Source: a phage. From it: 44,035 bases of DNA. The stretch lies in the sequence record PZ179884.1; one strand, written 5' to 3'. Below are positions 6,454-13,062 of the stretch, in pieces (positions within the stretch are counted from its first letter, which is position 1; each line of letters starts with the position of its first letter). A model generated the notes under the pieces. That model made no database searches, was not told the DNA's origin, and saw only the letters and a list, made by a program, of their open reading frames with translations. The translations under genes were made by a program, and so were the position numbers.

Positions 6454-6866
6454 TGGGCTACTTTGAGGACTTAACAAAAGCGTTCGATGTTCCGCTGGTA
6501 GCCTTCGGAACCGCCAACGGCATCAAGGTTGCGCTTGAAAACATCGACGCGCCGACGTCAACCGATACGCCGTATCTGGCGAGTTACATGCTACTGGCAG
6601 ATACCGAGCAGGCGGATTTGTTCTTCACTGAGCAACGCTCTGGTATTTATCAGGTAGACATTAACTACGCATCGGTGAAAGGTAGCGCGCCAATCAATAA
6701 AATGGCAGACTTACTTAACACGGCGTTTAAAGCAGGTAAGTCATTTTCGCGTAACGACATCTGCGCCGAGGTTCAATCGGTTAGCCTGGGGCCGCTGATT
6801 GTAGAAAACGGATGGGCCAAACGGCCATTGTCAATTAACTTTATAGCATTCACCAAGAGGCTGTGA
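6453..6866 (+). CDS. Tail component, possibly tail terminator (137 aa)
   Basis: ORF track; position immediately before major tail protein. Confidence 0.4.
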   Translation: MGYFEDLTKAFDVPLVAFGTANGIKVALENIDAPTSTDTPYLASYMLLADTEQADLFFTEQRSGIYQVDINYASVKGSAPINKMADLLNTAFKAGKSFSRNDICAEVQSVSLGPLIVENGWAKRPLSINFIAFTKRL

Positions 6867-6868
6867 AT

Positions 6869-8035
6869 ATGGCTACAACTCCTTTTAAGGGCGCGAATAC
6901 CGCGCAATTCTATGTGGCGGAAGTGACCCCGGGTGTAACACCGACTAACCCGGTCTGGTCACCATTACGTAACACGGGCGGTGTTCCTGCCATTACCCGT
7001 GACACACTGACCTCCAACGAACTCGACGGCAGCCGTGAAACTACATCCATCCGCACCGGTAACAAACAGGTTAGCGGTGAATACGCAATTGAGCTTAGCT
7101 CTAAAAGCCAGGATGACTGGTTGGCAGGTGCTTTAGGCTCTACGTGGCAATCCGGTGTTTCTCTGCCAGGGCTATCGATCACCGTCGCGCCCGCGGGCAA
7201 GACGTTCACACGCGCTACCGGCAGTTTTATCACTGACGGAGTTGGGGTAGGCGACCTGATTGCGTTTACCGACTTAACAGGCGATAACGCAAAACCATTT
7301 ATTGTTACCGCAGTAACGGCTACCGTTGTTACTGGTGCAGGCATCCAACACACCCTGACCACCGAGACAAAAACTAGTAAGGCTAAAACTGGCGACACGC
7401 TGGAAACCGGTAACACATGTAAGACGTTCTCTATTCTCACCTGGTACAAAGGACAGTGCGGCGGGACTGACGCATACACACTAACCAAAGGTGTGGAAGT
7501 TTCCGGTTTCACCGTTGAGCAGGCCGTTAACGCGATGGTTACAGGTAGCTTCCCGTTCATCGGGCGCAGCCAGGAGATTCTTACTACGCCGCCGTCTGGT
7601 TCCAACTTCTCCTCTGTCACGTTTGGTGATGAGCCATTCTCCTCGGTTGACGTTTCTGTGTTTGACGGCTATACGCCGTTGCGTTGCGACAGCCTGACCA
7701 TCACCAACGACAACAGCGCATCCGCGCAGTTCGAACTCGGCAACACTAACGTAGCGTTTGTAGAACGTAGCCGCGCGGCTAACACCTTCTCCATCTCCGG
7801 CAAGCTGTATGACATGGCGATGATTCAGAAGTTTATCAACGAGCAGCAGGTAGAGATTAACTCTATTCTGGCGGGGGTAAACGGGGCTATGTCTTTCAGT
7901 TTGAAACGTGCGGAGCTTACGGCAGTTACCCCAGAGATTGGCGGACCTGAGTCAATCACTCAGTCCATTGAAGGCCAGGCTACTGGCAACCAGTACCAGT
8001 CGTCTATTGTTATTCAGCGTATCACCTACGCATAA
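6869..8035 (+). CDS. Major tail protein
   Basis: ATG at 6869 with AAGAGG RBS (track start 6863 is GTG); Thr/Ser/Gly-rich 389 aa protein ahead of the tail module; strong terminator follows. Confidence 0.55.
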   Translation: MATTPFKGANTAQFYVAEVTPGVTPTNPVWSPLRNTGGVPAITRDTLTSNELDGSRETTSIRTGNKQVSGEYAIELSSKSQDDWLAGALGSTWQSGVSLPGLSITVAPAGKTFTRATGSFITDGVGVGDLIAFTDLTGDNAKPFIVTAVTATVVTGAGIQHTLTTETKTSKAKTGDTLETGNTCKTFSILTWYKGQCGGTDAYTLTKGVEVSGFTVEQAVNAMVTGSFPFIGRSQEILTTPPSGSNFSSVTFGDEPFSSVDVSVFDGYTPLRCDSLTITNDNSASAQFELGNTNVAFVERSRAANTFSISGKLYDMAMIQKFINEQQVEINSILAGVNGAMSFSLKRAELTAVTPEIGGPESITQSIEGQATGNQYQSSIVIQRITYA

Positions 8036-8064: not shown

Positions 8065-8295
8065 TTACTCATCAATGTTACTCCTGTACTCCCGTAACTT
8101 TTCCAGACTTTCAATTGCTTCCGCTAAGTCGGTTCCGGTGTCCTTGTGTCCACGTAAACCCATGCACAATAGCTTCTTCAATGCGTGCTGTAACGCCGGG
8201 TCGCGGATGTCGAAAGCGCGGAGCACATCATAAACGTCTACTGTCATAGTGCTGCCGTGAGTATTTGTCATTGTGCGGTTGTATTTTGAAGTCAT
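8065..8295 (-). CDS. Hypothetical protein (76 aa), last gene of antisense island
   Basis: ORF track; start overlaps stop of upstream gene. Confidence 0.45.
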   Translation of the reverse strand: MTSKYNRTMTNTHGSTMTVDVYDVLRAFDIRDPALQHALKKLLCMGLRGHKDTGTDLAEAIESLEKLREYRSNIDE

Positions 8296-9422
8296 CCCAG
8301 CATCTCCGGTGAAATAGTTAAACGTGCGACCTCACCATATTCGGCGCTATAAGTAATTACGTTTGCACTACGGCCTGACATCCACCCGCCGCGTGAGGCG
8401 TAGGCATCTTTAGCCGCTAAAGTGCGGTGTTGTTCAACAATCATGTTACGGCTTTCTACAATCTTCTGATGGTGCAGGTGGCCTACGTGGGCGTAGCTGT
8501 AAACACTCTCACCGAACGCTTTGCGGAACTTGGCAATCATAACCGGTTCGATAGCATCGAATCGCGCCTTATGCCCGTGGTGAAAGAACAACGTCGTTTT
8601 TCCGTGTTGCACCATCTTGTAAACATCCGGCGACGTATCGACAATCACTCGGCTGTCGTTCGAATATAAAACTGTGAACATTTCAGCCAGCCATACAGAG
8701 CCTACAGGGTCATGGTTCCCCTGTACGATAAGCAAGCGAACATTTTTATGTTTAACCAGTGCCATATCTACAACACGGCGTACCATACGAATCATGTAGC
8801 GGACGAGTTTCTGGTAGCGAGTGTCTGCGTCCAACACGTGACGCGACTCAGGTGTAACGGCATCCAGACTATCGAAGTGCGCGAAATCACCCAGCAGGTT
8901 AATAACTCCTGTTCCTGCATCCGGTGCTTTCTGAAACGCCGCGTCGAACCAACGAGAGAACAGGTCTTCCGCAATCTTTATATCCCAGTCGTCGCCGCTC
9001 TCGTCGGCCCAGGCAAGCATACCGAGATGGAAATCAGATACCGTGTAAAGATTGAGTAGCTTGTCGTCGCGTTTGGCTCGAGTCGCTTTAGCCGGCGCAA
9101 CTGGCGTAATCTCTGACTTCATGCCTTCAATCACGGCTTTCATCAACTCGACCTGACGTTCAGCGTCGGTGTCTGTCTTAACCCATTGCAACTTAGTATT
9201 GCCGAACTCGTCTACCAGAGACGACGTCCCTTTAATCTTGTAGCCGTCTGGGACAAGGTGGCTAACGTCACGCCCGTGGCCTACACCTTTCTTAGCCAGC
9301 TTCGCTTTACGGATACGAATAACTCGGTCTGAGATGCCGTATTTACGGGCGATGTCTACATTCTTCATCCCGGCGTTCAATTCTTCCTGTAACTGTTCGT
9401 CGGTTATTTTCTTCTGAGCCAT
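8292..9422 (-). CDS. N-terminal HTH domain fused to calcineurin-like metallophosphoesterase (376 aa)
   Basis: HTH-like NVDIARKYGISDRVIRIRK; phosphoesterase motifs SDFHLG, GDFAHFD, GNHD, HHGH, GHLHH in canonical order; RBS GAGGAA. Confidence 0.6.
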   Translation of the reverse strand: MAQKKITDEQLQEELNAGMKNVDIARKYGISDRVIRIRKAKLAKKGVGHGRDVSHLVPDGYKIKGTSSLVDEFGNTKLQWVKTDTDAERQVELMKAVIEGMKSEITPVAPAKATRAKRDDKLLNLYTVSDFHLGMLAWADESGDDWDIKIAEDLFSRWFDAAFQKAPDAGTGVINLLGDFAHFDSLDAVTPESRHVLDADTRYQKLVRYMIRMVRRVVDMALVKHKNVRLLIVQGNHDPVGSVWLAEMFTVLYSNDSRVIVDTSPDVYKMVQHGKTTLFFHHGHKARFDAIEPVMIAKFRKAFGESVYSYAHVGHLHHQKIVESRNMIVEQHRTLAAKDAYASRGGWMSGRSANVITYSAEYGEVARLTISPEMLG

Positions 9423-9487
9423 GCTTACTTCCTCGTGTTTAGGATTTGTCCTATTTAACCACAGTGGATTCCTTTAAATAAAGGCAA

Positions 9488-9814
9488 CTATTTACTTTCT
9501 GCGCCTATCGCCCACCCTGTCATTACCATTTGCAGACGGGTGGCTGTCAGTAGGCTATAGAAAGCATCTCCGTTTTTCTCTACCGAACGTATCACTGTGT
9601 AGGTTACGGCCTGCGGGGGTAGGCCCGATTTACCAACCTCCACGGCGGCCTCACACTCGCGAACTGTAGAGTCCTTGAACGCCTTTACAATAGTAGGGTC
9701 GGCTTTCTCGAGCACACCAGAAGTCATAAGAACAGATTCACTAAATACCTGTTCGCACGGGGCTCCAAAAGTAGCAAAAGACATAAACCCCAGAGCTAAT
9801 ACTAATTTACGCAT
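9488..9814 (-). CDS. Secreted / periplasmic protein (108 aa)
   Basis: N-terminal signal peptide MRKLVLALGFMSFATFGA; RBS GAGGG 8 nt upstream. Confidence 0.5.
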   Translation of the reverse strand: MRKLVLALGFMSFATFGAPCEQVFSESVLMTSGVLEKADPTIVKAFKDSTVRECEAAVEVGKSGLPPQAVTYTVIRSVEKNGDAFYSLLTATRLQMVMTGWAIGAESK

Positions 9815-9871: not shown

Positions 9872-9978
9872 GTAGTGTGTTAGAATAAGTTTGCGCCTAG
9901 TGTCGCACACGAAAAGCGGGTGGTTCCCGCCGGGCGCATTAACCATAACCAGTAACCTCTTAACCAAAGGACTAAAGA

Positions 9979-10395
9979 ATGAAACTTTCTGATTTCTATT
10001 TTGCCGACCGCCACGCCGCCGGTACTAAAATGCCTATCCTTCTGCCGAGTGGTAAAGACTCCGGTGAATGGTTGCAGGTCATCGGCCCCGATTGTGACGC
10101 TGGTGTTCGTGCAGGCCGCGCCTACACAACGGCAATTCGACGCCTTACGGAAGAACTTGCGCCCTTAGATAAAGAGTGTGAGGCACTGAATAACTGGGCG
10201 CGCTATAACGATGAGAAGGGCTGGCGGGTGATGGACCTGAACAAGCAGCTTGCCGTGGAAATTGTCACCGGTTGGTCATTCGACGAACCATTCAGCAAAG
10301 AGGCGCTGGCTAACCTGTTCGACCAGTACAGTGGACTGGCTGAGGCGGTAGTTAAGCACCACACCGACAGCCGCGAGAAACTATCGGAAAAGTAA
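9979..10395 (+). CDS. Tail assembly chaperone (G-like)
   Basis: Position directly upstream of tape measure gene; ends at a candidate slippery site. Confidence 0.5.
   Translation: MKLSDFYFADRHAAGTKMPILLPSGKDSGEWLQVIGPDCDAGVRAGRAYTTAIRRLTEELAPLDKECEALNNWARYNDEKGWRVMDLNKQLAVEIVTGWSFDEPFSKEALANLFDQYSGLAEAVVKHHTDSREKLSEK
10386..10392 (+). other. Candidate -1 programmed frameshift site G_GAA_AAG
   Basis: Heptamer sits immediately before the stop codon (10393-10395); the -1 frame is open from 10356 to 10757. Confidence 0.4.
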
Positions 10396-10757
10396 AAGCG
10401 CTGTATGAATTTGCGCAATGGTGTTTTGTTGACCGCCACAAACGTAAGCAATTCGACGACATCGCGGCAGGGCACCAGGCGGCTTTGATTGCAATGGGCG
10501 TGATTAAAGAACCGCAGATGAAAGAAACGACGGGGCCTGAATGCCCCGTTTCTCTTATCGACGTGTTCGATAAATACCGTGCCATTAAATTCCTACAGCG
10601 CGAAACAGATGATACTATCGTTATAATCCCGCGCGATGCGCTCAAATGGCAAGATTTGGCTGCGTTTCGCGATGTCGCCGGTTACGGCATAAGTTTGTTC
10701 GAAGCCGAGGTTATCATGGGCTTAGACGGAATATTTGAGGGCAGAGAAGATGGCTGA
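10392..10757 (+). CDS. -1 frame extension of the tail assembly chaperone (GT-like fusion product)
   Basis: Track ORF 10485-10757 (TTG start) lies in the -1 frame, has no convincing own start, and ends overlapping the tape measure start. Confidence 0.4.
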   Translation, partial: VKALYEFAQWCFVDRHKRKQFDDIAAGHQAALIAMGVIKEPQMKETTGPECPVSLIDVFDKYRAIKFLQRETDDTIVIIPRDALKWQDLAAFRDVAGYGISLFEAEVIMGLDGIFEGREDG

Positions 10758-13062
10758 TACGGCTTCCCTAATTGCCAGAGTAAAAACAGAAGGTGCTGAC
10801 GTAGCTGCCAAACAGCTTGACGCTATGGCGGCATCCGCAGCCCGGGCGGACACATCGGTAAATAAACTAGCTCCGGATGTTAATAAAGTAAACTCCGCTA
10901 CGTCTAAAGCTGCCTCTGACGGTTTCGCTAAGTTCCGTAACGCCGCAGGGCAGGTGGGCTTCCAGGTACAGGACATGGTTGTCCAGTTGCAGTCCGGTAC
11001 GTCTGCATTCGTAGCAATCGGGCAACAAGGTTCGCAGCTTGCGGGTGCTTTCGGCCCTGGTGGTGCGGTGCTTGGAGCTGTAATTGCTCTTGCGTCAGCA
11101 ATCGGTGGTGTCCTGTACAAATCGCTAACCGAAGCAGAAGGCAGTTCAAAAGACCTCGAAGCCGCGCAGAAACAGTTAAAAGACACCTTCCAGCAAACGG
11201 CATCCGGTTCTCTTGAACTGACAGATGGCCTTATCCAGCTTACCCAAATCAGCAGAGAAGCAGCGGAGACTCAGCTTGCTCTGGCTAAGGCTAACGCGGA
11301 CCTTATCGCGCAGCAAACCGCTAAAGCTGTTCGTGAAGATGCCGAATCATGGGAAACGTGGAAAGCCTCCACGGCATCGGCGATTAGCCAGTATGATGCA
11401 TTAGTCTCTAAGGGCGCAGATGTAGGCGACACATTAGAAAAACTCGGCGGCACTTACGAGGGCAACATCGTAGGCGTCAACATGCTGGCGCAGAATATCG
11501 CGGAGCTTAGCAGTAAGTTCGGAGTTAACCGTGACCAGGCGCTGGAGATGATAGCGGCGCAGAGTGCGTTTAACAAAGAGCCAACCGCCGAGAATGCCCG
11601 TCGCATCGCCGATGTGTTTACCGACTGGCTCGGTAACACAAAACAGTTGAACCCGGAACTTATCCGCCTGACGGACAACGCCAACAAGAACGCCACGGCA
11701 CTGGAGAACGCGGAGAAGTCAGCAAACGCGGCGGCAGAGGCCCAAAAGAATCTTGGTCGTAACGTCAACTCAACAACGCAGAGATTCCAGGAACAGAACG
11801 AAGCTATCGTCAAAAACCAGCAAATCGCTATCTTAAGTGACCGCGAGCGTATCCGTGCGCAAGCTGAACTGGATAAGCAGGCGTTCGCTAAACGTGAAGC
11901 TGTCACCAAAGAACAGATAGCCGCGTATAATGCGGCCCGCGACGCGGAAGCGCAGCAAGACATCGCCCGCATTGACAAGACCGAGAAAGAGAAGGCCGAC
12001 CGCGAGGCTAAATCGAACGAGGAACGTCTGGCGGCACAAGCCAAACGCGAAGAAACAGCGGCACAACGTCAGAAAAAAGCGGCGGAAGATTTCCTGGCTA
12101 CTGTCGACCGCACAACCGGAGATGAGATTTCGCGCATTACCGCTGCGGAAGAACAGAAACTGGCGAAACTGGAGGAGTTCAACCGCGCCGGAACGATAAG
12201 CCAGCAGCAGTATGAAAACGCCAAAACTCAAATTATGCTCACAGCCGAGCAGGCCAGACAGGAAGAACTGGATAAGAAAAGAAAAGAGCAGCAGGAAAAG
12301 CAGCAGAAAGGCGAGGACTTCATGGCGCAGATTATGGGTCAGAACGCTACTGAGCTTGAGCTTCTCGACATCCAGGAACAGCAGAAACTGGAGGTAGCGG
12401 ATAAGTACCGTGAGCAGGGGCTTATTAGTGAGAAGCAGTACCAGGCGGCGCTTAACGCCATCAATGAGCAGTATGCTACGAAGCGTGCCGACGCAACGGC
12501 AACCGCCTTCGGTAACATGGCTTCAAACATCGGTTCGGCTTTGGGCGAGGCTTCTGGCGCGTATAAGGCATTCGCTATCGTACAGGCCACTATCGCCACG
12601 TACACCGCGGCTATCGAGGCGTACAAGTCCACAGCGGCTATCCCTGTAGTTGGTCCGTTCCTGGCTCCTGTAGCTGCCGCCGCTGCCGTTGGGGCGGGTA
12701 TGGCGCAGATTTCCGCTATCAGGTCCGCACGTGAACAGGGCGGACAGTTATCAGCCGGGCAGGCTTCCACCATCGCTGAACGTGGTAAACCAGAAGTTAT
12801 CATGCCCGCTGGTGCGTCACGTGTACGCACCGCACAGCAGATGAAAGAAATTATGGGGCAAAACGGGTCTTCTTCCGGCCCATCTAATGTTACCATTGTA
12901 AATAATACATCGAGTCAGATTGGCAACGTATCCACCGAGCAGGATGATGAAGGCCGTCTGCGTATCATCATAGAAGAGCAAGTTGCTGCATCTTTGCAGA
13001 ATAGCAACAGTAAGATTAGCAAGGCCCGCAAGGCCACAAGAAACGCGCCGGGGTTTAAATAA
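10750..13062 (+). CDS. Tail tape measure protein
   Basis: ATG at 10750 (track start 10735); long Ala/Gln/Glu-rich helical protein with Gly/Ala-rich hydrophobic stretches. Confidence 0.75.
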   Translation: MADTASLIARVKTEGADVAAKQLDAMAASAARADTSVNKLAPDVNKVNSATSKAASDGFAKFRNAAGQVGFQVQDMVVQLQSGTSAFVAIGQQGSQLAGAFGPGGAVLGAVIALASAIGGVLYKSLTEAEGSSKDLEAAQKQLKDTFQQTASGSLELTDGLIQLTQISREAAETQLALAKANADLIAQQTAKAVREDAESWETWKASTASAISQYDALVSKGADVGDTLEKLGGTYEGNIVGVNMLAQNIAELSSKFGVNRDQALEMIAAQSAFNKEPTAENARRIADVFTDWLGNTKQLNPELIRLTDNANKNATALENAEKSANAAAEAQKNLGRNVNSTTQRFQEQNEAIVKNQQIAILSDRERIRAQAELDKQAFAKREAVTKEQIAAYNAARDAEAQQDIARIDKTEKEKADREAKSNEERLAAQAKREETAAQRQKKAAEDFLATVDRTTGDEISRITAAEEQKLAKLEEFNRAGTISQQQYENAKTQIMLTAEQARQEELDKKRKEQQEKQQKGEDFMAQIMGQNATELELLDIQEQQKLEVADKYREQGLISEKQYQAALNAINEQYATKRADATATAFGNMASNIGSALGEASGAYKAFAIVQATIATYTAAIEAYKSTAAIPVVGPFLAPVAAAAAVGAGMAQISAIRSAREQGGQLSAGQASTIAERGKPEVIMPAGASRVRTAQQMKEIMGQNGSSSGPSNVTIVNNTSSQIGNVSTEQDDEGRLRIIIEEQVAASLQNSNSKISKARKATRNAPGFK

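What the first reader, a model, noticed from the sequence alone, without database searches (positions are those of the whole stretch)
10356..10757. Candidate -1 programmed frameshift joining two tail assembly chaperone frames
The chaperone ORF ends ...S E K stop, with the heptamer G_GAA_AAG (10386-10392) immediately before the stop. The -1 frame is open from 10356 to 10757 and ends overlapping the tape measure start. That downstream ORF has only a TTG start and no convincing RBS. This mirrors the lambda G/GT arrangement.
Basis: partly seen in the sequence, partly recalled or inferred. Interest (0 to 1): 0.45.

Follow-up and report, generated by a model that had tools for sequence, protein, structure and literature searches.

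The report
Phage tail-chaperone −1 frameshift site
This is the ordinary ribosomal frameshift site through which a tailed phage makes a small amount of a longer tail-assembly chaperone; near-identical phages already carry the annotation, and its only twist is a minimal "A_AAG plus stop codon" slip signal instead of the textbook seven-base one.

Summary
The window is a Kagunavirus (Guernseyvirinae) E. coli siphophage. All the stated coordinates are correct. The 138-aa chaperone ORF (9979-10395) ends GAA AAG TAA, and the -1 frame is open from 10356 to 10757. That frame ends 8 nt into the tape-measure gene (ATG 10750).

The two frames match Pfam Phage_TAC_4 and Phage_TAC_18. One PHROG family of 259 positions covers both, so that family is the fusion protein.

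GenBank K1H (2010) and phage fFiEco02 already annotate the joined CDS, so the feature is already known.

Comparison adds three points:
- The conserved signal is not the heptamer. It is the tetramer A_AAG followed directly by TAA or TAG; the three bases before it vary.
- The strongest synonymous-site conservation in the whole fusion alignment sits on this junction, including an unexplained GCG YTG block 5 nt after the slip site.
- The 34 codons between the stop and the first recurrent Met evolve as protein in the -1 frame (pN/pS 0.33) and have no conserved start codon.

Distant homologues shift at the same protein position using canonical T_TTT_TTC or A_AAT_TTT. No downstream RNA structure is conserved.

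The most likely mechanism is slippage of tRNA-Lys on A_AAG, helped by the adjacent stop codon. No experiment has shown this.

The parts
9967..9971 (+). Shine-Dalgarno-like AAGGA, 7 nt upstream of the chaperone ATG
   Evidence: Sequence; anti-SD duplex -5.3 kcal/mol.
9979..10395 (+). G-like tail assembly chaperone ORF, 138 aa, the product of standard decoding
   Evidence: Pfam Phage_TAC_4, E 1e-8, 35.9 bits against a cut-off of 21.1. Matches phrog_15027 positions 1-138. Identical to K1H ADA82315.1.
10386..10392 (+). Only its last four bases, A_AAG (10389-10392), are conserved, and they are the proposed slip site for tRNA-Lys(UUU).
   Evidence: The 7-mers seen are GGAAAAG 53, CGCAAAG 9, AGCAAAG 5, GGTAAAG 3, GGCAAAG 3 and GGGAAAG 1, out of 74 distinct junctions.
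10393..10395 (+). 0-frame stop codon TAA directly 3' of the slip site; proposed 'shifty stop' stimulator. Its T and A also form the -1-frame Val codon GTA.
   Evidence: The stop is adjacent to A_AAG in all relatives of at least 44% identity, always as TAA or TAG. The base after the stop is A in 57, C in 15 and T in 2 junctions, never G.
10398..10404 (+). GCGCTGT block (-1-frame codons Ala-Leu plus T), conserved at synonymous sites; function unexplained
   Evidence: GCGCTG in 64 junctions and GCGTTG in 10. Some annotators start a CDS at this CTG or TTG.
10392..10757 (+). -1-frame segment translated after the shift: 121 codons plus TGA. The fusion product is 9979-10392 joined to 10392-10757, 259 aa, with junction ...LSEK|VKALYEF...
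   Evidence: Matches phrog_15027 positions 136-259. Same length and junction as the K1H and fFiEco02 joined CDSs.
10392..10493 (+). Linker of 34 -1-frame codons with no conserved start codon, evolving as protein
   Evidence: across 13 lineages. The -1 frame has no stops, against 1-4 in the 0 frame and 0-4 in the +1 frame. For codons 6-35 (10407-10496), pN/pS is 0.33 in the -1 frame against 1.48 and 1.40 in the other frames. Differences at codon positions 1/2/3 are 0.30/0.28/0.62. Start-codon survey.
10485..10739 (+). T-domain core (Pfam Phage_TAC_18)
   Evidence: E 1.6e-17, 63.9 bits against a cut-off of 27, residues 44-128 of the 10356-based translation.
10750..13062 (+). Tape measure protein gene. 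Its ATG overlaps the T stop (ATGGCTGA), and GAGG lies 9 nt upstream.
   Evidence: phrog_1538 E 4.7e-198; start as annotated in K1H, Bas72 and XY2; SD duplex -6.1 kcal/mol.
6863..8035 (+). Tail tube protein gene, the inferred binding partner of the T domain
   Evidence: Pfam Phage_tube_2, E 7.5e-36. The partnership is inferred from lambda biology and was not tested.

Best explanation
Most ribosomes translating the chaperone gene stop at TAA 10393 and release the 138-aa G-like chaperone. A minority slip back one base when tRNA-Lys(UUU) re-pairs from AAG (10390-10392) to AAA (10389-10391). They then read GTA (10392-10394) and continue for 121 codons. The result is a 259-aa G-T fusion that ends inside the start of the tape-measure gene.

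The slip signal is minimal: the tetramer A_AAG with the stop codon immediately 3' of it. The likely route is one-tRNA slippage of peptidyl-tRNA-Lys in the P site while the slowly decoded stop codon occupies the A site. In this phage, and in most relatives, the preceding GAA codon allows partial re-pairing to GGA, so some two-tRNA slippage may add to this. No downstream RNA structure is involved.

By analogy with lambda, G and the G part of the fusion coat the tape measure protein, and the T part recruits the tail tube protein. Frameshift efficiency would set the G:GT ratio.

Shown here: the sequence anatomy, family membership, conservation of signal and frame, and protein-type evolution of the linker. 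Inferred: the shift itself, its efficiency, the P-site route and the assembly role.
For: 1. Both frames belong to chaperone families, and phrog_15027 (259 positions) spans G at positions 1-138 and the -1 frame at 136-259.
2. Joined CDSs of 259 aa are already deposited for K1H and fFiEco02 at the identical sequence TCGGAAAAGTAAAAGCGCTGT.
3. A tblastn search with the fusion finds the two-piece, two-frame layout in 489 of 513 phage records.
4. Every protein-anchored relative from 44 to 100% identity ends in A_AAG_TAR, while the three bases before it vary.
5. In six of the relatives (and one more) the -1 window open before the stop shrinks to 19 nt, so the shift must fall in the last five codons.
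6. The top synonymous-conservation window of the 266-column fusion alignment is K138 to +4, with naive z 26. The best window clear of the junction scores z 9.
7. The linker is under purifying selection only in the -1 frame. Start codons there are not conserved: L029 has none in 70 codons, L030 has its first at codon 58 and L017 at codon 48.
8. Homologues of 30-35% identity carry T_TTT_TTC or A_AAT_TTT at the aligned protein position. Two of them have no start codon in the next 45 -1-frame codons.
9. The phage encodes no tRNA, so it relies on the host's single tRNA-Lys.
10. A_AAG is the most shift-prone tetramer in E. coli (PMC4066793; PMC5009743).
11. One-tRNA P-site slippage with an unoccupied A site needs no downstream structure (PMC6771820). 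The 'shifty stop' concept appears in PMC5009743.
Against: - No protein or reporter data exist for any member of this phage group. One genome announcement for a Guernseyvirinae-like phage states that there is 'no canonical slippery sequence' (PMC6776780).
- In E. coli reporters, tetramers without a stimulator are barely above background, 0.147% against 0.112%. No conserved hairpin, pseudoknot or upstream SD was found here, so the level of shifting rests on the untested stop-codon effect.
- The Leu codon five nucleotides after the stop is always CTG or TTG, both near-cognate or cognate start codons. Several GenBank records start a separate CDS there.
- In this phage, TTG 10485 and ATG 10494 have SD-like sequences as good as those of real genes. 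A separate short T product therefore cannot be excluded.
Confidence: 0.82

Rival explanations
1. The T segment is made as a separate protein of about 118 aa. Ribosomes would initiate, or reinitiate after terminating at TAA, at the CTG at 10401 (TTG in SETP13-type phages), five nucleotides after the stop. No frameshift would be needed.
For: - The codon is CTG in 64 and TTG in 10 of 74 junctions, never another Leu codon.
- Bas72, SETP13 and Schulenburg annotate a CDS starting exactly there; Schulenburg also marks an RBS 12 nt upstream of that start.
- phrog_4557 (118 positions) is that ORF.
Against: - CTG is a very poor bacterial initiator (general knowledge). No lineage has ATG or GTG at this position.
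- The SD-like match is weak, -3.5 kcal/mol, and lies about 12 nt away. It is absent where the 7-mer is CGCAAAG or AGCAAAG.
- This model leaves three things unexplained: the invariant A_AAG (two synonymous or non-coding choices), the adjacency of the stop, and the conserved GCG codon before the YTG.
- Distant homologues encode the homologous helix upstream of the G stop, where only a heptamer shift can reach it.
- In lambda the working species is the GT fusion (PMC5009743).
Confidence: 0.07
2. The T domain is expressed independently from the internal starts TTG 10485 or ATG 10494, giving a 90-aa or 87-aa protein as annotated in XY2, Tsm2 and many metagenome gene calls.
For: - SD-like duplexes of -6.2 and -5.8 kcal/mol precede these starts.
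- The ATG recurs in most lineages.
- The 87-aa ORF product is on record on hundreds of contigs.
- The Pfam Phage_TAC_18 model begins there.
Against: - The 34 codons upstream are under purifying selection in the -1 frame with no stops, so translation enters from further upstream.
- The Met is Ile in L017, L018, L029 and L030. L029 has no start codon at all in 70 codons (alignment).
- The gene calls are automatic. At most this would be an additional minor product.
Confidence: 0.05
3. There is a frameshift, but it works: classical simultaneous two-tRNA slippage on the heptamer G_GAA_AAG during translocation. tRNA-Glu would move GAA to GGA and tRNA-Lys AAG to AAA, with the stop codon playing no part.
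For: - GGAAAAG is the commonest 7-mer, 53 of 74 junctions.
- GGA offers G:C, G:U and A:U pairing to the tRNA-Glu anticodon (direct reading).
- One relative has the canonical lambda heptamer G_GGA_AAG (L043), which is highly shift-prone in E. coli.
Against: - Twenty junctions (CGCAAAG, AGCAAAG, GGTAAAG, GGCAAAG) offer no usable re-pairing for the first tRNA, yet they keep A_AAG and the stop.
- Translocation-linked slippage normally depends on a downstream structure, and none is conserved.
- The invariant adjacency of the stop is unexplained by this model. Homologues with true heptamers place the stop 18-54 nt away.
Confidence: 0.2
4. It is not a recoding site at all. It would be a frameshift mutation or assembly error in a single chaperone gene, or slippage of RNA polymerase on the A run.
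For: Only that a single-base frame change separates the two ORFs.
Against: - The same two-frame layout occurs in 489 phage records and about 75 metagenomic contigs from independent samples.
- The G stop codon is conserved.
- The A run is only four bases, well below what transcriptional slippage needs (general knowledge).
Confidence: 0.01

Closest known systems
Phage lambda G/GT tail assembly chaperones (Levin, Hendrix and Casjens 1993; Xu, Hendrix and Duda 2004, 2013, 2014; summarised in PMC5009743)
   Same: Two overlapping ORFs lie immediately upstream of the tape-measure gene. [quoted passage not shown] The A-site codon is AAG, read by tRNA-Lys. No downstream structure is required. The expected role is to set a G:GT ratio (about 30:1 in lambda).
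   Different: Lambda uses the canonical heptamer G_GGA_AAG. Here only A_AAG is conserved, and the stop codon directly abuts it. No sequence similarity to lambda G or T was tested or seen; the Pfam families here are Phage_TAC_4 and Phage_TAC_18. The tube gene is not adjacent: three minus-strand genes intervene.
Escherichia phage K1H ORF19A/19B (GU196278 and NC_027994) and fFiEco02 gp26/gp27
   Same: Same genus. The G protein is identical to that of K1H, and the junction sequence TCGGAAAAGTAAAAGCGCTGT is identical. Both records annotate a joined two-piece CDS of 259 aa.
   Different: Nothing of substance; a few substitutions in the T part. Those annotations are predictions too. Most sister records (XY2, Bas72, SETP13, Schulenburg, Tsm2) instead call a separate downstream ORF, with three different starts.
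Single-tRNA-Lys -1 shift sites: IS3 (A_AAG), IS1222 (G_CGA_AAG) and Bacillus subtilis cdd (A_CGA_AAG)
   Same: The shift rests on A_AAG alone, with a non-slippery preceding codon (PMC5009743; PMC4066793).
   Different: IS3 depends on a downstream pseudoknot, which raises A_AAG to 5.6%. From my own recollection, not checked here, cdd depends on an upstream SD-like stimulator. Neither kind of element is conserved here; the only adjacent conserved elements are the stop codon and GCG YTG.
Burkholderia phage KL1 gp18/gp19 (PMC3483164)
   Same: A 142-aa chaperone and a 264-aa predicted fusion. The slip motif lies immediately upstream of the stop codon. The structural genes are related to those of K1H.
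   Different: KL1 has a canonical heptamer, GGGAAAC, followed by TGA. It also has an extra tail gene between the chaperones and the tape measure.

Membership tests
Tailed-phage G/GT-type tail assembly chaperone pair expressed by -1 programmed frameshift (Xu et al. 2004) | Pair of ORFs immediately upstream of the tape-measure gene and downstream of the major tail/tube gene | tested here: met
   T ends 8 nt inside the tape-measure gene. The tube gene (Phage_tube_2) is upstream, but three minus-strand genes at 8065-9814 separate it from the pair.
Tailed-phage G/GT-type tail assembly chaperone pair expressed by -1 programmed frameshift (Xu et al. 2004) | The second ORF is in the -1 frame relative to the first, overlaps its 3' end and lacks its own conserved start | tested here: met
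   The -1 frame is open from 10356, a 40-nt overlap. Start codons are not conserved across lineages. The linker is protein-coding in the -1 frame.
Tailed-phage G/GT-type tail assembly chaperone pair expressed by -1 programmed frameshift (Xu et al. 2004) | Canonical slippery heptamer X_XXY_YYZ in the overlap | tested here: not met
   G_GAA_AAG is not X_XXY_YYZ, and the overlap contains no other such motif. Only the tetramer A_AAG is present and conserved. One relative (L043) has G_GGA_AAG, and distant homologues have T_TTT_TTC or A_AAT_TTT.
Tailed-phage G/GT-type tail assembly chaperone pair expressed by -1 programmed frameshift (Xu et al. 2004) | Sequence membership of both parts in tail-assembly-chaperone families | tested here: met
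   Phage_TAC_4 scores 35.9 bits (cut-off 21.1) and Phage_TAC_18 scores 63.9 bits (cut-off 27). phrog_15027, 'tail assembly chaperone', covers both parts. No solved structure is detectable by sequence.
Tailed-phage G/GT-type tail assembly chaperone pair expressed by -1 programmed frameshift (Xu et al. 2004) | A fusion protein is actually produced at a low, fixed ratio and is required for tail assembly | not testable with these tools
   No proteomic or reporter data were found for Guernseyvirinae.
A_AAG single-tRNA -1 shift sites of E. coli-type translation systems | Z_ZZN tetramer A_AAG in the 0 frame, in a host with a single tRNA-Lys(UUU) | tested here: met
   A at 10389 followed by AAG at 10390-10392, in frame. 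The window has no phage tRNA. Hosts of all close relatives are Enterobacterales. That E. coli has a single tRNA-Lys is taken from PMC5009743.
A_AAG single-tRNA -1 shift sites of E. coli-type translation systems | An accompanying stimulator: a downstream structure, an upstream SD or a slow A-site codon | tested here: inconclusive
   There is no conserved structure: RNAalifold gives -0.1 kcal/mol, and the fold of the window region has z +1.39. No upstream SD-like element was seen in the upstream sequences, though no dedicated search was made. The adjacent stop codon is invariant and is a plausible stimulator, but its effect was not measured.

The most novel reading that the evidence does not exclude
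The invariant string around the shift site, G-N-A_AAG_UAR-(A/C)-N-GCG-YUG, would be a compact and wholly unstructured -1 frameshift cassette. In it, the weak-context stop codon and the GCG YUG block 5 nt downstream act as sequence-specific stimulators, for example by slowing release-factor action or by contacting the ribosome's mRNA entry channel. That would substitute for the hairpin, pseudoknot or SD that A_AAG needs elsewhere. Alternatively, the YUG would serve as a back-up reinitiation codon, so that T is made by two routes.
Probability: 0.2. Interest if true: 0.5.

Novelty: already known. Interest (0 to 1): 0.2.

Why it matters
The practical value is for annotation. GenBank records of this large phage group (over 480 genomes, many of them therapy candidates) treat the same locus in four inconsistent ways, and one paper states that there is no slippery sequence. 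The comparative evidence here argues for a single joined 259-aa CDS with the shift at A_AAG.

For recoding specialists it offers a natural, deeply conserved example of a tetramer-plus-stop -1 site with no RNA structure. It also has an unexplained block of synonymous conservation just downstream, which would be cheap to test in a reporter. It does not change the understanding of tail assembly.

Tried and rejected
- **Downstream stimulatory structure.** RNAalifold on 15 lineages from the site to +118 gave only 3 invariant pairs and -0.1 kcal/mol. The window's own 115 nt fold less well than shuffles, z +1.39. Rejected.
- **Pairing of GCGCUGU with rRNA.** E. coli 16S and 23S rRNA contain no 6- or 7-mer Watson-Crick complement. 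The only match is a G:U-containing 7-mer at 16S position 1239. Rejected.
- **Pairing of GCGCUGU with an upstream AGC(C)GC-like segment.** This was assessed by eye on the sequences. Pairing is possible in some lineages and absent in others (L014, L016). It would also be impossible while a ribosome covers the site. Rejected.
- **GNAAAGTARNNGCGCTGT as a general element.** In IMG/VR, 70 of 119 hits lie in homologous chaperone junctions, and the other 49 look like chance matches inside unrelated ORFs. It is not a wider motif.
- **Solved structures by sequence.** Nothing was found.
- **Exact look-up of this window's fusion protein.** It is not in the collection; only the separate 138-aa and 87-aa ORF products are.
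- **Literature.** I found no experimental demonstration for Kagunavirus, Jerseyvirus or Guernseyvirinae. Xu et al. 2004 and Anany et al. 2015 are not held.
- **Hairpin at 10529-10550 as a frameshift stimulator.** It lies about 137 nt downstream of the site, too far to act. Rejected; see the items noticed in passing.

Full report
**What the window is.** The region 9700-11000 matches 114 phage records at 80-99% identity. Almost all are Escherichia phages of the genus Kagunavirus (Guernseyvirinae), and the best matches are XY2 and Bas72 at 96%. The window contains no tRNA gene.

**Checking the observation.** From the sequence, the ORF 9979-10395 ends TCG GAA AAG TAA, that is S E K stop. GGAAAAG occupies 10386-10392. 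A TAA at 10353-10355 closes the -1 frame, which is then open from 10356 to TGA at 10755-10757. The tape-measure ATG used in related records corresponds to window 10750, so the two genes overlap in ATGGCTGA. All the stated coordinates are therefore right.

Two statements need correcting.
- G_GAA_AAG is not an X_XXY_YYZ heptamer. Only A_AAG is a slip motif.
- The -1 frame has ATG 10494, GTG 10500 and ATG 10518 as well as TTG 10485. The sequences before TTG 10485 and ATG 10494 pair with the anti-SD as well as those of the chaperone and tape-measure genes do: -6.2 and -5.8 against -5.3 and -6.1 kcal/mol.

**What the two frames encode.** The 0-frame product matches Pfam Phage_TAC_4 (35.9 bits, cut-off 21.1). 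The -1 frame matches Phage_TAC_18 (63.9 bits, cut-off 27). In PHROGs a single family of 259 positions, phrog_15027 'tail assembly chaperone', matches the first product over positions 1-138 and the -1 translation over positions 136-259. The family is therefore built on fusion proteins. The upstream gene 6863-8035 is a tail tube protein, and the downstream gene is the tape measure.

**It is already annotated.** The 2010 GenBank record of phage K1H (GU196278) and its RefSeq copy carry a two-piece joined CDS, ORF19B, of 779 nt alongside ORF19A. Phage fFiEco02 labels the same thing 'frameshift product'. The window's G protein is identical to that of K1H, and the junction DNA is identical.

Other records disagree with these and with each other.
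- Bas72, SETP13 and Schulenburg start a separate CDS at the CTG or TTG five nucleotides after the stop.
- XY2 and Tsm2 start at the ATG that corresponds to 10494.
- The announcement of the related phage Shashou says there is 'no canonical slippery sequence' (PMC6776780).

**Comparative evidence for a frameshift.**
- A tblastn search with the 259-aa fusion finds 513 phage records. In 489 of them the match covers at least 80% of the query; every such record listed matches in two or more pieces, that is, across frames.
- Two protein-anchored scans of IMG/VR gave about 75 loci at 30-100% identity.
- In every locus of at least 44% identity the G ORF ends N_NNA_AAG_TAR, and the -1 frame then runs 119-122 codons. 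The +1 frame closes within 4-81 codons, within 20 in all but two lineages.
- The three bases before A_AAG vary: GGA, GGT, AGC, CGC, GGC and GGG. The conserved unit is therefore the tetramer plus the stop.
- In six of the relatives (and one more) the open -1 window before the stop is only 19 nt, which confines the shift to the last five codons.
- In a codon alignment of the fusion from 13 lineages (44-90% amino-acid identity), the five-codon window with the greatest excess of identical synonymous codons is K138 to +4, with naive z 26. The best window clear of the junction reaches z 9.
- The 34 codons between the shift and the first recurrent Met contain no stop in any lineage, against 1-4 in the 0 frame and 0-4 in the +1 frame. 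Over codons 6-35 they vary mostly at third positions (0.30/0.28/0.62) and give pN/pS 0.33 in the -1 frame, against 1.48 and 1.40 in the other frames.
- Start codons in this stretch are not conserved. L029 has none in 70 codons.
- Four homologues of 30-35% identity also have a -1 arrangement, with the canonical heptamers T_TTT_TTC or A_AAT_TTT. When their predicted fusions are aligned with this one, the shift points fall at the same place, just before the conserved helix (ours: KALYEFAQW). Two of them have no start codon in the next 45 codons.

**Mechanism.** A_AAG is the most shift-prone tetramer in E. coli, because the single tRNA-Lys(UUU) pairs weakly with AAG. On its own, however, it is hardly above background, and it reaches 5.6% only with a pseudoknot (PMC4066793; PMC5009743).

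No downstream structure is conserved here, and the upstream sequences show no SD-like element, though no dedicated search for one was made. What is invariant is the stop codon directly after AAG. It is followed by A or C in 72 of 74 junctions and never by G.

One-tRNA P-site slippage while the A site awaits a slow ligand needs no structure (PMC6771820). Stop codons acting in this way are the classical 'shifty stops' (Weiss et al. 1987, cited in PMC5009743).

I therefore favour slippage of peptidyl-tRNA-Lys from AAG to AAA while TAA is in the A site, followed by decoding of GTA. In the 53 junctions with GGAAAAG, including this one, tRNA-Glu could partly re-pair on GGA, so tandem slippage may contribute. 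Efficiency cannot be estimated from sequence. The assembly role (G coats the tape measure, T recruits the tube protein, and the ratio is set by the shift) is carried over from lambda and was not tested.

**Rivals.**
- *Initiation or reinitiation at the CTG/TTG five nucleotides after the stop.* This is the only serious alternative that would also translate the conserved linker. It would explain why that Leu codon is always YTG. It does not explain A_AAG, the stop adjacency, the conserved GCG before it, or the heptamer-bearing homologues. CTG is also a poor initiator with a weak, distant SD.
- *Independent initiation at TTG 10485 or ATG 10494.* This may give a minor extra product in this phage, but it cannot account for the selected linker.
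- *A mutation, an assembly error or transcriptional slippage.* The breadth of conservation and the four-base A run exclude these.

**Unexplained.** The two codons GCG YTG, 5 nt downstream of AAG, are fixed at synonymous sites in all 74 junctions. They do not belong to a conserved hairpin and are not complementary to rRNA. The motif does not occur outside this family more often than chance would give. The first base of the codon before AAG is always G, whatever the amino acid.

**Verdict.** This is a real, conserved -1 frameshift site of the G/GT kind, already annotated in near-identical phages. It is ordinary in function and slightly unusual in its minimal signal, and it has never been tested experimentally.

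Noticed in passing
window 10529-10550 (+ strand), inside the T (-1 frame) ORF; same place in L016, L023, L026, L031, L032, L046, L048: A terminator-like GC-rich hairpin (GACGGGGC/GCCCCGTT) is followed by a T-rich run, about 137 nt after the shift site. Relatives have hairpins there with different stems; L032, for example, has GGGGTGGGC/GCCCGCCCC followed by TTTTTA. Five of 15 lineages lack it. Double-sided changes occur in 16 cells against 8.5 +/- 2.5 in shuffles (1 of 500 shuffles reached the observed value). The hairpin overlaps a conserved G-P-E-C-P peptide, so it may partly be a by-product of the protein sequence. It might instead be an attenuator in a stretch that few ribosomes translate, lowering tape-measure transcripts relative to chaperone transcripts.
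   Followed up: partly
window 8065-9814 (- strand), between the tube gene (6863-8035) and the chaperone gene (9979): Three leftward genes interrupt the rightward tail module. One is a 376-aa protein that relatives annotate as a DNA repair exonuclease or phosphatase. A promoter-like site (TTCACC, 16 nt, TATAAT) lies on the minus strand at 9843-9816, just upstream of them. A minus-strand terminator-like hairpin lies at 9931-9915.
   Followed up: no
GenBank records of relatives (L001-L003, L174-L177): The same locus is annotated in four ways: a joined frameshift CDS (K1H, fFiEco02); a separate CDS from the CTG or TTG 5 nt after the stop (Bas72, SETP13, Schulenburg); a separate CDS from the internal ATG (XY2, Tsm2); or 'hypothetical protein'. 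Two family models were built on the truncated ORFs: Pfam Phage_TAC_18 begins at the internal start, and phrog_4557 begins at the CTG.
   Followed up: yes
window 10735-10752: The mechanical ORF list starts the tape-measure ORF at TTG 10735. Relatives and the GAGG at 10737-10740 point to ATG 10750, which overlaps the T stop codon in ATGGCTGA. That arrangement suggests translational coupling to the few ribosomes that have shifted, in addition to independent initiation.
   Followed up: partly
protein collection, cluster 1: A single 90%-identity cluster of 320 members contains the 138-aa G proteins, the 87-aa downstream ORF products and a 119-aa form. G and T share no sequence, so this is odd. It suggests that a fusion-length member bridges them.
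   Followed up: no
L050, L052, L053, L054 (IMG/VR contigs; G 30-35% identical): Distant homologues of the chaperone use T_TTT_TTC or A_AAT_TTT, placed 18-54 nt before the stop. The enterobacterial-phage lineages use A_AAG abutting the stop. This fits slip motifs being matched to the host's tRNA set, but the hosts of these contigs were not determined.
   Followed up: partly
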